From a virus: a stretch of 64,000 nt of DNA. The DNA lies in the IMG/VR virus record IMGVR_UViG_3300017829_000024, positions 1,157 to 65,156 of that record. The stretch is one strand, 5' to 3'. The number at the start of each line of letters is the position of its first letter. Within the stretch, counting starts at the first letter, position 1. This document shows, in pieces, positions 35,896 through 64,000 of this stretch. The translations under genes were made by a program, and so were the position numbers. The notes under the pieces were generated by a model. That model did no database searches and was not told where the DNA came from. It saw nothing but the letters and a program-made list of their open reading frames with translations.

Positions 35896-36349
35896 TTTTC
35901 AGCCTCTCTCGCGCAGAGAGCGCGAGCTCGGCCCATGATGTGTATTGGCTTCCTCGGCCTTCTTCTTCGAGCTGATAAATGACGCGATCCAGGGCAATAT
36001 CCGTTTGAAGTTTCGCCCAAATCGCCATGTAGCCGCGCCGTGCTGTGTGATCCATTCCGGCCTGCATCATGAGGATCGATAGGGATCGGACGCGCTCGAC
36101 CGCGTCATCGTCTGATGCGTCCGCGAAGGCGAGCGCATCGACCGTGCGAAGGCGTTTGGCCTCATAGAGCGCCGCCTCTTGCCTCCAGGCCTGAAGGAGT
36201 CGCGGGTGGTCCTTCATGCGCTTTGCGAGCGTCGTTCGCGCCATCATGAGGGTGTCCGCGATTTGGGCGGGCCGAAGACCCTGACCCGCAAGGACGCGGA
36301 TGCGCGACTCGAGAAGCCGCACATCCTTGTGCCATGGCCGAGGAATCAC
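35855..36349 (-). CDS. terS: Terminase small subunit candidate
   Basis: N-terminal HTH (GLRPAQIADTLMMARTTL); GTGA overlap start; upstream of terL. Confidence 0.6.
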   Translation of the reverse strand: MIPRPWHKDVRLLESRIRVLAGQGLRPAQIADTLMMARTTLAKRMKDHPRLLQAWRQEAALYEAKRLRTVDALAFADASDDDAVERVRSLSILMMQAGMDHTARRGYMAIWAKLQTDIALDRVIYQLEEEGRGSQYTSWAELALSARERLKNGERNRERTDNDQ

Positions 36350-63317: not shown

Positions 63318-63391
63318 TGGTGCAAGCCGGATTTGAACCGGCAACCCATCGGTTAACAGCCGATTGCTCTACCAAAGTGAGCTATTGCGTG
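63318..63391 (-). tRNA. tRNA-Asn(GTT) with defective or short acceptor stem
   Basis: ATCGG-CTGTTAA-CCGAT anticodon arm, GCTC/GAGC D arm, TTCAAAT T loop; only 4 acceptor pairs. Confidence 0.75.
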
Positions 63392-63419
63392 TAGGCGCAT
63401 CCTTGGAGGATGCGACGTC

Positions 63420-63491
63420 TAGCACAGGAGGGACTCGAACCCCCGACCTTCAGATTATGAGACTGAAAAGCTGCCGCTGCTCCACTGTGCT
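63420..63491 (-). tRNA. tRNA(CAT), initiator-Met-like body; CCA not encoded
   Basis: Acceptor AGCACAG/CTGTGCT, loop CTCATAA, T loop TTCGAGT, D arm GGAGCAGCGGCAGCT. Confidence 0.85.
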
Positions 63492-63528
63492 ATGCGCTCG
63501 AAACGAGTTGTGCAGCATGAATTGCAAA

Positions 63529-63606
63529 CCGCGCTCTAACCATCTGAGCTACACCCCGACACCGGGGTGACAGGATTCGAACCTGCGACCTCGGGCTCCC
63601 AAAGCC
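63529..63606 (-). tRNA. tRNA-Pro(TGG) halves in permuted order (3' half precedes 5' half)
   Basis: 3' half 63605-63562, 5' half 63558-63529; joining gives a full cloverleaf with a perfect CGGGC/GCCCG anticodon stem. Confidence 0.6.
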
Positions 63607-63855
63607 AATGCGTGTAAGCTGCACACGGGGTCTCAAGCGCGGCGAGCCTACCTTGATCTTCGCCGCGATGCATGCACGATTCGGCATGCGTCCTGTGCGC
63701 GCCCGGTCTGGATGTGCCTCAACGCTGTCGCATGCATGACGATACGCCGCTCCCCCCAGGCTAGACCGGGACTCTGCGCTCATGGAGGGGGTTCCGCAGC
63801 ATGCCGGCGCGGGCACGCGTCGTGAGGAGGCCTGTCAGAAGGTCGCCACAGTGCG

Positions 63856-64000
63856 TCAGATCGGAAGAAGAGGCTGCACACAAAGCGATGCTATCTCATC
63901 TTCAATCCGCTCGAGCTCGGCTTCAGCAAGCTTGACTGCCTCTTCGGCGAGCTCGAGGTCGGCATCAAGCGCGGCCTGCTCGAGCGCAATGTCTCGAGTC
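63856..64000 (-). CDS. Partial coiled-coil protein (5' end outside window)
   Basis: Reads TRDIALEQAALDADLELAEEAVKLAEAELERIEDE... to TGA at 63858-63856. Confidence 0.6.
   Translation of the reverse strand, partial: TRDIALEQAALDADLELAEEAVKLAEAELERIEDEIASLCVQPLLPI

What the first reader, a model, noticed from the sequence alone, without database searches (positions are those of the whole stretch)
63509..63625. Apparent circularly permuted tRNA-Pro gene with pairing flanks
On the minus strand the 3' half (GC-TTTGGGA-GCCCG-AGGTC-GCAGG-TTCGAAT-CCTGT-CACCCCG) comes first. After a 4-nt linker GTGT comes the 5' half (CGGGGTG-TA-GCTC-AGATGGTTA-GAGC-G-CGG). Joining the halves restores a perfect 7-bp acceptor and a 5-bp anticodon stem that neither half has in place. 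An 8-bp inverted repeat (TGTGCAGC/GCTGCACA) lies exactly 12 nt outside each junction and would hold the ends together. Permuted tRNAs are known to me from red algae and an archaeon, not from phages. The alternative is two decayed tandem tRNAs.
Basis: partly seen in the sequence, partly recalled or inferred. Interest (0 to 1): 0.78.

Follow-up and report, generated by a model that had tools for sequence, protein, structure and literature searches.

The report
Phage tRNA-shaped Y-like RNA
The "back-to-front tRNA-Pro" is real, but it is most likely not a tRNA gene: it has the layout of YrlA-type Y RNAs, small tRNA-shaped RNAs already known from bacteria and some phages, and here no gene for their usual protein partner Ro60 is in sight.

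Summary
On the minus strand a tRNA-Pro 3' half is followed by GUGU and then the matching 5' half. An 8-bp helix lies 12 nt outside each junction. Rejoining the halves gives a tRNA-Pro(UGG) that ARAGORN accepts.

The interpretation as a permuted tRNA gene is not the best one. The order T arm, closed 7-bp acceptor stem, D arm, enclosed by a long end-to-end stem, is the published architecture of YrlA, the tRNA-mimicking Y RNA bound by Ro60/Rsr and reported in 22 phages. Three results support this:
- Rfam YrlA scores the element at 41.3 bits. Seven Ro60-linked phage elements score 24-42 bits, and none reaches the 69-bit cut-off.
- Among IMG/VR records with such closed-acceptor elements, 7 of 12 carry a Ro60 (TROVE) gene, against 2 of 15 tandem-tRNA controls.
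- Ro60-linked elements also "rejoin" into tRNAs.

A second copy, tRNA-Ile-like, lies 436 nt upstream, just outside the window. The helix extends to 19 bp, and the RNA ends at the 5' end of tRNA-Met.

Caveat: no Ro60 gene is in the 65.5-kb contig (81% complete, ending 1.9 kb upstream).

Verdict: a new member of a known kind. This scan has noted such elements in other phages before.

The parts
63494..63640 (-). E1, the whole stem-enclosed tRNA-like RNA (147 nt): outer stem, 4x4 internal loop, inner stem, composite anticodon-like arm, T arm, closed acceptor stem, D arm
   Evidence: MFE folds keep both terminal stems and the T, acceptor and D arms (z = -2.7). Rfam YrlA matches 63525-63594 at 41.3 bits, E 1.2e-7.
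63639..63666 (-). Upstream hairpin CGGCGA / UCGCCG carrying GGCGAAG (63664-63658). It may be a Ro60-binding-type motif and part of the same transcript.
   Evidence: Sequence and fold. The GNCGAAN0-1G motif is defined in PMC4201824. The helix has the same letters as P1 of the Rfam YrlA consensus. The motif alone is weak evidence: 104 copies in the window, about 5% chance in a 60-nt stretch.
63631..63640 (-). Outer terminal stem, 5' strand (pairs with 63503-63494)
   Evidence: 10 pairs plus one C-G; duplex statistics; folds.
63618..63625 (-).
63563..63605 (-). tRNA-Pro-like 3' half: anticodon-like loop UUUGGGA (63603-63597), CCG that pairs in trans, AGGUC, T arm (63586-63570), acceptor 3' strand (63569-63563)
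   Evidence: The last 27 nt are identical to genuine tRNA-Pro genes in at least 120 bacterial species.
63559..63562 (-). GUGU loop closing the 7-bp acceptor stem; predicted RNase P cleavage site at its 3' edge
   Evidence: Sequence. Precedent: M. smegmatis YrlA with a 7-bp stem is cut there and receives CCA (PMC4201824, section 8). The cleavage here is inferred.
63529..63558 (-). tRNA-Pro-like 5' half: acceptor 5' strand, U8 A9, D arm (63549-63533), G26, CGG (27-29)
63509..63516 (-). Inner terminal stem, 3' strand (GCTGCACA)
63494..63503 (-). Outer terminal stem, 3' strand. It ends one base before tRNA-Met, so RNase P processing of tRNA-Met would set the 3' end of E1.
   Evidence: the processing is inferred.
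63419..63492 (-). tRNA-Met(CAT), next gene of the same-strand cluster
   Evidence: ARAGORN; Rfam tRNA 58.7 bits.
63318..63391 (-). tRNA-Asn(GTT), last gene of the cluster
   Evidence: ARAGORN; Rfam tRNA 53.1 bits.
63856..64000 (-). 3' part of a 70-codon coiled-coil ORF (continues to window-equivalent 64068) between the second element E2 and E1. E2 itself (L001:2233-2097, window-equivalent 64212-64076) and tRNA-Thr (L001:2354-2281) lie beyond the window end.
   Evidence: ORF list, sequence, ARAGORN on L001, Rfam YrlA 34.1 bits for E2.

Best explanation
E1 is a YrlA-type Y-like RNA, that is, a structured non-coding tRNA mimic. It is not a gene for a decoding tRNA.

Proposed working:
1. It is transcribed on the minus strand with the phage tRNA cluster: tRNA-Thr, E2, small ORF, E1, tRNA-Met, tRNA-Asn.
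2. Its 3' end is set by RNase P cleavage at the 5' end of tRNA-Met.
3. It folds into an L-shaped tRNA-like body. The acceptor stem is closed by a 4-nt loop. The anticodon-like arm is made partly in cis and partly by pairing CGG (27-29) with CCG (41-43).
4. The body is clamped by a 19-bp two-part terminal helix.
5. By analogy with YrlA, the helix or the upstream GGCGAAG hairpin would bind a Ro60/Rsr ring. That protein would be encoded by the host or by the missing fifth of the phage genome. The tRNA-like body would recruit a tRNA-binding or RNA-degrading enzyme.
6. Because the acceptor stem has 7 bp, as in M. smegmatis YrlA, RNase P may open the loop and CCA may be added. That would give two paired pieces of 82 and 65 nt.

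Shown here: the architecture, its significance, a second copy, and the association of this class with Ro60 in other phages. Inferred: transcription, processing, Ro60 binding and function.
For: - Rfam YrlA (RF02553) matches 63525-63594(-) at 41.3 bits, E 1.2e-7, over model positions 23-89, the tRNA-like domain.
- A 62-nt stretch across the closed acceptor stem is 86% identical to an unannotated stretch of mycobacteriophage Sparky. That stretch lies 280 nt upstream of Sparky's Ro-like gene and scores 36.6 bits.
- Ro60-linked elements in six IMG/VR phage records score 24-42 bits. E1 (41.3) and E2 (34.1) sit in that range and above tandem-tRNA junctions: 25.0 bits for the Met/Asn junction, and a 27.1-bit match in L026 that is probably another.
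- In a scan of IMG/VR for T loop, 7 nt, a short spacer, 7 nt, then TAGCTCAG, acceptor complementarity is bimodal. There are 12 perfect 7/7 cases where about 1 is expected.
- 7 of 12 records with a closed acceptor carry a TROVE gene, against 2 of 15 tandem-tRNA controls (Fisher p = 0.019).
- The trans pairs 27-43 and 28-42 are both present in 62% of closed-acceptor cases against 16% of controls. The sequences differ (CU/AG, UC/GA, CG/CG, AA/UU, UA/UA).
- Ro60-linked elements also rejoin into ARAGORN tRNAs (Ala, Pro, Ser, Thr).
- E2 repeats the layout with other sequences: tRNA-Ile(GAU)-like, 7-bp acceptor stem, 5-nt loop, 8-bp plus 7-bp terminal stems.
- The literature describes exactly this layout. 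It also reports a 147-nt M. smegmatis YrlA cut into 82 nt (with CCA) and 65 nt (PMC4201824; 10.1101/312249). E1 as delimited by its outer stem is 147 nt and would give 79+CCA and 65 nt.
Against: - No TROVE/Ro60 gene is found in the 65.5-kb contig in any frame. No Ro-like hit appears among 10 large ORFs in PHROGs or among the 72 ORFs scanned in Pfam. The published criterion is a Ro60 gene within 4 kb on the same strand.
- The Rfam gathering score (69 bits) is not reached.
- The GNCGAAG motif sits in a separate upstream hairpin, not in the closing stem, and is only about 5% unlikely by chance. E2 has no exact copy.
- The YrlA model also 'rings' below its cut-off on tandem tRNAs in 13 of 14 control genomes.
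- No relative of this phage with a long enough contig was found, so there is no conservation or covariation evidence for E1 itself.
- There are no expression data.
- Unlike most Ro60-linked elements, E1 keeps a coherent tRNA-Pro identity: C1-G72, UGG with G37, and 27 nt identical to real tRNA-Pro.
Confidence: 0.72

Rival explanations
1. A Ro60-independent tRNA mimic. The same RNA works with another partner, or acts as a decoy or substrate for host enzymes that recognise tRNA, such as anticodon nucleases, modification enzymes, RNase P or the CCA-adding enzyme. The intact Pro(UGG) and Ile(GAU) anticodon-like loops would matter for this.
For: - No TROVE gene in an 81% complete contig.
- One 97% complete, 170-kb IMG/VR phage (G003, locus L123) has a closed-acceptor element and no TROVE gene.
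- E1 and E2 keep canonical anticodon loops (U33; G37 for Pro, A37 for Ile) and tRNA-class-coherent bodies.
That is a lead only.
Against: - The contig ends 1.9 kb upstream of E1, and Ro60 genes normally lie within 4 kb.
- The class as a whole is linked to Ro60 (7 of 12 records, most of them fragments).
- No candidate partner was found: nothing related to RNA metabolism among the Pfam families hit in the contig.
Confidence: 0.14
2. A relic of two tandem tRNA-Pro genes. The first has lost its 5' half and the second its 3' half, and the remnant has no function of its own.
For: - Tandem tRNA-Pro genes exist in phages. Streptomyces phage Wakanda has two abutting copies, and BLAST aligns E1 across their junction.
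- A dimeric-tRNA origin of YrlA has been proposed in the literature (10.1101/312249).
- The YrlA model also scores tandem tRNA junctions.
Against: - The flanks have no residual similarity to the missing halves (p 0.37, 0.60, 0.50, 0.80).
- The retained halves are perfect: 7/7 acceptor pairs, all tertiary-interaction nucleotides, and 27 nt identical to living tRNA-Pro genes.
- The flanks have instead become complementary to each other over 19 bp.
- The same outcome is seen a second time, with a tRNA-Ile-like unit.
- Uniform neutral decay would not spare exactly the two inner halves twice.
Confidence: 0.07
3. A true permuted tRNA-Pro gene. The precursor is cut at the 29/30 junction, the ends are ligated, the acceptor loop is opened, and a decoding tRNA-Pro results.
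For: - Rejoining gives a canonical tRNA-Pro(UGG) with C1-G72 and G37, up to 88% identical to real tRNA-Pro genes.
- The 7-bp acceptor stem fits RNase P.
- ARAGORN and Rfam find no ordinary tRNA-Pro or tRNA-Ile in the contig.
Against: - No tRNA splicing endonuclease has been reported in bacteria.
- No ligase or endonuclease family appears among the Pfam hits of the contig.
- By inspection, the junction is a 12/12-nt internal loop, not a bulge-helix-bulge.
- The base at the discriminator position is G, whereas all 120 real tRNA-Pro genes with this 3' end have A.
- 'Restorability' is shared by Ro60-linked mimics whose anticodon-like loop does not fit the body, for example Ser(GCU) without a long variable arm.
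- E2 would need a different cut site (26/27).
Confidence: 0.05

Closest known systems
YrlA of Mycobacterium smegmatis and of mycobacteriophages (Rfam RF02553; Chen et al. 2014, PMC4201824)
   Same: - Same order of parts: 5' strand, anticodon-like hairpin, T arm, closed acceptor stem, D arm, 3' strand.
- Same 7-bp acceptor stem with tRNA-Pro-like letters (CGGGGUG/CACCCCG in Sparky too).
- 86% identity over 62 nt.
- Same overall size, and the same predicted RNase P products as reported for M. smegmatis (147 nt; 82 and 65 nt).
- Lies among tRNA genes, as in Sparky.
   Different: - No Ro60 gene within reach; in Sparky it lies 280 nt downstream.
- The terminal helix is longer and two-part.
- The GGCGAAG motif is in a separate upstream hairpin.
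- The anticodon-like loop and the body keep one coherent tRNA identity (Pro). Sparky combines a Pro-like acceptor with an Ala-like loop.
YrlA of Salmonella Typhimurium (crystal structure 6CU1; Wang et al. 2018, 10.1101/312249)
   Same: - tRNA-like L shape built from T, D and closed acceptor arms.
- The stem in the anticodon position is formed by the 5' and 3' parts of the RNA and leads to the Ro60-binding module.
   Different: - The Salmonella acceptor stem has 6 bp and is not cut by RNase P.
- It has no cis hairpin with a 7-nt anticodon-like loop in the Rfam consensus.
- It lies in the rsr-rtcBA operon.
Yrl1 and Yrl2 of Thermus phage phiLo with phage Ro60 (PMC12135203)
   Same: Two Y-like RNAs side by side in a phage, each a stem-bulge-stem structure with a CGAA-type motif.
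   Different: They lie directly upstream of the phage Ro60 gene, and binding was shown by experiment. No tRNA-like domain is mentioned in the passages read.
Circularly permuted tRNA genes of Cyanidioschyzon merolae and other algae, and of Thermofilum pendens (from my own knowledge; Soma et al. 2007 is cited)
   Same: - The 3' half precedes the 5' half.
- The acceptor stem is first a closed loop.
- The ends pair in the anticodon region.
   Different: Those precursors carry a bulge-helix-bulge motif and are matured by the splicing endonuclease and a ligase through a circular intermediate. Neither the motif nor the enzymes were found here.
Tandem tRNA-Pro genes of Streptomyces phage Wakanda
   Same: BLAST aligns E1 at 80% identity across the junction of two abutting tRNA-Pro genes. 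This is a plausible ancestral state.
   Different: In Wakanda both genes are complete and annotated. In E1 only the inner halves exist, and the outer flanks form a helix.

Membership tests
YrlA-type Y RNA (RF02553) | tRNA-like domain in the order T arm, closed acceptor stem-loop, D arm, with the nucleotides for tRNA tertiary contacts | tested here: met
   U8, A14, G15-C48, G18 G19, U54 U55 C56 and G26-A44 are all present. There is a 7/7 acceptor stem with a 4-nt loop. The rejoined form is accepted by ARAGORN.
YrlA-type Y RNA (RF02553) | A stem in the anticodon position formed between the 5' and 3' parts of the RNA and continuing into a long terminal helix | tested here: met
   CGG pairs with CCG in trans. 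This pairing covaries across the class. Then follow 8 bp, a 4x4 loop and 10-11 bp.
YrlA-type Y RNA (RF02553) | GNCGAAN0-1G motif near the 5' end (likely Ro60 contact) | tested here: inconclusive
   GGCGAAG lies at 63664-63658, in a hairpin 18 nt upstream of the closing stem. The motif is common in this genome (104 copies). E2 has only GUUCGGGA.
YrlA-type Y RNA (RF02553) | Ro60/TROVE gene within 4 kb on the same strand | tested here: inconclusive
   None in the contig. Downstream lie convergent structural genes. Upstream the contig ends after 1.9 kb, and the record is 81% complete.
YrlA-type Y RNA (RF02553) | Rfam gathering score of 69 bits | tested here: not met
   E1 scores 41.3 bits. None of the Ro60-linked phage elements reaches the cut-off either (24-42 bits).
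YrlA-type Y RNA (RF02553) | Bound by Ro60/Rsr in vivo | not testable with these tools
   Needs co-immunoprecipitation or a gel-shift assay.
Circularly permuted tRNA gene (algal/archaeal type) | 3' half upstream of the 5' half; rejoining gives a canonical cloverleaf | tested here: met
   This feature is shared with Ro60-linked mimics, so it does not discriminate.
Circularly permuted tRNA gene (algal/archaeal type) | Bulge-helix-bulge motif at the junction of the leader and trailer | tested here: inconclusive
   By inspection only. The junction is flanked by 12-nt unpaired stretches. At most a 4-bp AUUG/CAAU helix can form, with a bulge on one side only. No dedicated bulge-helix-bulge search was run.
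Circularly permuted tRNA gene (algal/archaeal type) | Splicing endonuclease and RNA ligase available | tested here: not met
   No such family appears among the Pfam hits of 72 ORFs of the contig. None has been reported in bacteria. The host is unknown.
Bacterial tRNA-Pro | A at the discriminator position after the acceptor strand | tested here: not met
   E1 has G. All 120 genomic tRNA-Pro genes sharing its 27-nt 3' end have A.

The most novel reading that the evidence does not exclude
E1 and E2 work without Ro60. RNase P opens the closed acceptor loop and CCA is added. The resulting two-piece, stem-clamped tRNA-Pro and tRNA-Ile look-alikes, with intact anticodon loops, are then either charged or serve as decoys or spare substrates against host tRNA-cleaving defences.
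Probability: 0.1. Interest if true: 0.75.

Novelty: new member of a known kind. Interest (0 to 1): 0.3.

Why it matters
The finding adds an uncultivated phage with no close relatives in the collections searched, about 59% G+C, to the phages that carry tRNA-shaped Y-like RNAs.

Two features stand out:
- It carries two such RNAs, each still nearly a perfect tRNA of one identity (Pro, Ile). This fits the published idea that such RNAs arise repeatedly from tRNA dimers.
- No Ro60 gene lies within the 65.5 kb recovered. If the completed genome also lacks one, the phage would either borrow the host's Ro60 or use the mimic in another way.

As it stands, this is an annotation gain rather than a new principle.

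Tried and rejected
- **Close relatives for covariation.** Pattern and protein scans of IMG/VR found only mycobacteriophage Sparky or nothing. Tail-tube and capsid homologues exist only on contigs of 3-7 kb without the cluster. Two JGI metagenome pattern scans found nothing.
- **Exact-protein look-up.** The look-up of the tail tube protein found no record.
- **Sequencing runs.** None was listed, and no RNA holder was listed.
- **Host inference.** The 27-nt tRNA-Pro 3' end occurs in many phyla, so it says nothing about the host.
- **Residual similarity of the flanks to the missing halves.** None.
- **A divergent Ro60.** PHROGs on 10 large ORFs and an Atlas look-up of one 481-aa ORF gave nothing.
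- **Promoter and terminator scan of the cluster.** No promoter at the tool's threshold; the only 'terminators' are hairpins inside E1.
- **Supplementary tables of Chen et al. 2014.** Not held, so M. smegmatis YrlA could not be aligned directly.
- **Own covariance model of the phage class.** Considered and dropped, because Rfam scores with internal controls answered the same question.

Full report
**Where the window lies.** The window is bases 1157-65156 of a 65,515-base IMG/VR virus record. The record is classed as linear and is estimated at 81% complete. The finding lies 1.9 kb from the contig end. I fetched that end as L001, where L001 position plus 61979 gives the window coordinate.

**The observation.**
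- TGTGCAGC at 63625-63618
- 12 nt
- a 43-nt tRNA 3' half at 63605-63563
- GUGU
- a 30-nt 5' half at 63558-63529
- 12 nt
- GCTGCACA at 63516-63509

ARAGORN and the Rfam tRNA model see tRNA-Met (63492-63419) and tRNA-Asn (63391-63318) next door, but no tRNA here. When the halves are rejoined, ARAGORN calls tRNA-Pro(tgg).

A symmetric 8-bp inverted repeat arises in 0.1% of shuffles.

The pairing of the flanks is longer than reported. Beyond a 4x4 internal loop, 63640-63631 pairs with 63503-63494. That gives about 19 bp in all, at -34.6 kcal/mol against -14.4 +/- 3.3 for shuffles. With unselected 60-nt flanks p is 0.012.

The 3' strand of this helix ends one base before tRNA-Met.

**What it resembles.**
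- A permissive Rfam scan gives YrlA (RF02553) at 63525-63594(-), 41.3 bits, E 1.2e-7, over the tRNA-like part of the model.
- BLAST against phage records finds 118 mycobacteriophages with about 86% identity over 62 nt spanning the closed acceptor stem.
- In phage Sparky that stretch is unannotated. It lies after a tRNA cluster, 280 nt upstream of a 'Ro-like RNA binding protein' gene, and scores only 36.6 bits.

YrlA is the tRNA-mimicking Y RNA bound by bacterial Ro60 (Rsr):
- Chen et al. 2014 (PMC4201824) found it near Ro60 in 254 bacteria and 22 phages.
- They defined a GNCGAAN0-1G motif and V, T, AS and D stem-loops.
- They showed that the 147-nt M. smegmatis YrlA, which has a 7-bp acceptor stem, is cut by RNase P into a 65-nt piece and an 82-nt piece that ends in CCA.
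- Wang et al. [quoted passage not shown] They also discuss an origin from dimeric tRNA transcripts.

E1, delimited only by its outer helix, is 147 nt. It would give 79+CCA = 82 nt and 65 nt.

**A second copy.** Beyond the window end, L001:2233-2097(-) has the same layout with different letters:
- an 8-bp outer stem
- an internal loop
- a 7-bp inner stem
- a perfect 5-bp hairpin with loop CUGAUAA
- AGGUC
- a T arm
- the acceptor stem CCCCGGC / ACGCU / GCCGGGG
- a D arm

.

Rejoined, it is called tRNA-Ile(gat). Its flanks also pair better than shuffles (p 0.014 and 0.022).

The helices of the two copies differ in sequence. They share the internal-loop strands (ACCC.. and ACUC) and a UUACA motif before the hairpin.

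The cluster on the minus strand reads: tRNA-Thr, E2, a 70-codon coiled-coil ORF, E1, tRNA-Met, tRNA-Asn.

**Is the class linked to Ro60?** I scanned IMG/VR for a T loop, 7 nt, 3-7 nt, 7 nt, then TAGCTCAG. I scored complementarity of the two 7-mers.
- The distribution is bimodal. Most junctions have 2-4 pairs (ordinary tandem tRNAs), while 12 have 7 of 7, where about one is expected.
- I took twelve records other than ours with a closed acceptor and no flanking full tRNA. Seven carry a TROVE gene, although most are small fragments.
- Of 15 records with ordinary tandem junctions (all 4 of 7 pairs or fewer), two carry one (Fisher p = 0.019).
- The Ro60-linked elements score 24-42 bits with the Rfam model, and none reaches the 69-bit cut-off. 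So failure of E1 at that cut-off is not informative.
- Known or probable tandem junctions score 25-27 bits. The model 'rings' below its cut-off in 13 of 14 control genomes. The score alone is therefore weak, and the architecture carries the argument.

**The joined anticodon stem is a family trait.** Across the closed-acceptor elements, the two or three bases after position 26 pair with the bases just before the AGGUC-type variable loop. The sequences differ from element to element. Both of the first two pairs are present in 62% of cases, against 16% in tandem controls.

A short cis hairpin with a 7-nt loop of anticodon-loop type completes a 5-bp arm.

Ro60-linked elements, once rejoined, are likewise called tRNAs by ARAGORN: Ala, Pro, Ser and Thr. 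Several are incoherent, for example Ser(GCU) without a long variable arm.

**Against a decoding tRNA.**
- The last 27 nt of the E1 3' half are identical to genuine tRNA-Pro genes in at least 120 bacterial species of many phyla. Every one of these is followed by A, whereas E1 is followed by G.
- Pfam scans of 72 ORFs of the contig found no RNA ligase, RtcB, nuclease of the splicing type or CCA-adding enzyme.
- The junction has no evident bulge-helix-bulge. This rests on inspection only.
- The two copies would need different cut sites (29/30 and 26/27).
- A 19-bp helix leaving the anticodon stem would have to be removed before the RNA could enter a ribosome. This is an inference from tRNA-ribosome contacts.

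**Against a mere relic.** Local alignment of each flank with the half it would have replaced is no better than shuffles (p 0.37, 0.60, 0.50, 0.80). Meanwhile the inner halves are flawless and the flanks have become mutually complementary. This has happened twice. A tandem tRNA-Pro ancestor, as in Streptomyces phage Wakanda, remains a reasonable origin.

**What does not fit.**
- A six-frame TROVE search of the whole contig is empty.
- PHROGs on ten large ORFs shows nothing Ro-like.
- GGCGAAG is present at 63664-63658, but in a separate hairpin (CGGCGA/UCGCCG, the letters of the Rfam P1 helix). The motif is frequent in this genome.
- One 97% complete phage in my sample has a closed-acceptor element and no TROVE gene.

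The Ro60 step is therefore inferred, not shown. I put it at roughly even odds within the tRNA-mimic reading.

**Limits.**
- The phage has no close relatives with usable contigs in any collection I could search.
- No sequencing run was listed.
- The host is unknown.

So there is no conservation evidence for E1 itself, apart from its paralogue E2, and there are no expression data.

**Earlier notes of this scan.** I consulted these after I had reached the YrlA reading. They describe similar permuted tRNA-like RNAs in tRNA clusters of other phages beside Ro60-like genes, and one case with a different proposed partner. I treat them as leads only.

**Verdict.** This is a real, non-random, twice-occurring structured RNA of the YrlA kind. 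It is a new member of a known class. The one unusual point is that no Ro60 gene is in view.

Noticed in passing
L001:2097-2233 (-), window-equivalent 64076-64212, just outside the window: A second permuted, stem-enclosed tRNA-like element (E2). It is tRNA-Ile(GAU)-like, with a perfect 5-bp hairpin and loop CUGAUAA, and a 7-bp acceptor stem closed by ACGCU. A weak Rfam tRNA hit (31.6 bits) overlaps it, because its inner-stem 5' strand GCCGG can also pair with the acceptor 3' strand.
   Followed up: yes
L001:1877-2089 (-), window 63856-64000 and beyond: A 70-codon ORF between E2 and E1 encodes a strongly helical, charged (coiled-coil-like) peptide. The overlapping plus-strand ORF looks like antisense noise. 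No Pfam family matched. It starts 8 nt after E2 without an obvious ribosome-binding site.
   Followed up: partly
L001:2240-2268 (-): TTGACG, 17 nt, TACATA lies between tRNA-Thr and E2. It may be a sigma-70-type promoter for E2. The scan tool does not count it because the last base of the second hexamer is A.
   Followed up: no
window 36256-36350 (-): ARAGORN calls a 95-nt tRNA-Glu(ctc) here, but the Rfam tRNA model does not reach its threshold. It is probably a false call or an unusual tRNA-like stretch.
   Followed up: no
L129:2545-3068 (-) (same place as L078:6481-7004): An IMG/VR phage record carries three YrlA-like elements in tandem (41.6, 28.7 and 24.1 bits) and a 544-codon TROVE frame in the same locus.
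   Followed up: partly
L123:3675 (+), record G003: A 170-kb, 97% complete, AT-rich phage has a closed-acceptor tRNA-like element with a terminal stem but no TROVE gene. It is a possible Ro60-less case.
   Followed up: no
L005:4815-5336 (-): In the nearest relative found (tail tube 56% identical), a minus-strand AAA_33 kinase-type gene follows the tail tube gene, where this phage has other genes and the tRNA cluster. No tRNA was found on that 6.6-kb contig.
   Followed up: no
L002:2440-2470 and 2610-2640: Mycobacteriophage Sparky repeats GUUCGAUG twice upstream of its YrlA-like element. It also has a second (G)UCGGUUAUC-containing stretch downstream, perhaps a YrlB-like partner RNA. Neither is annotated.
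   Followed up: no
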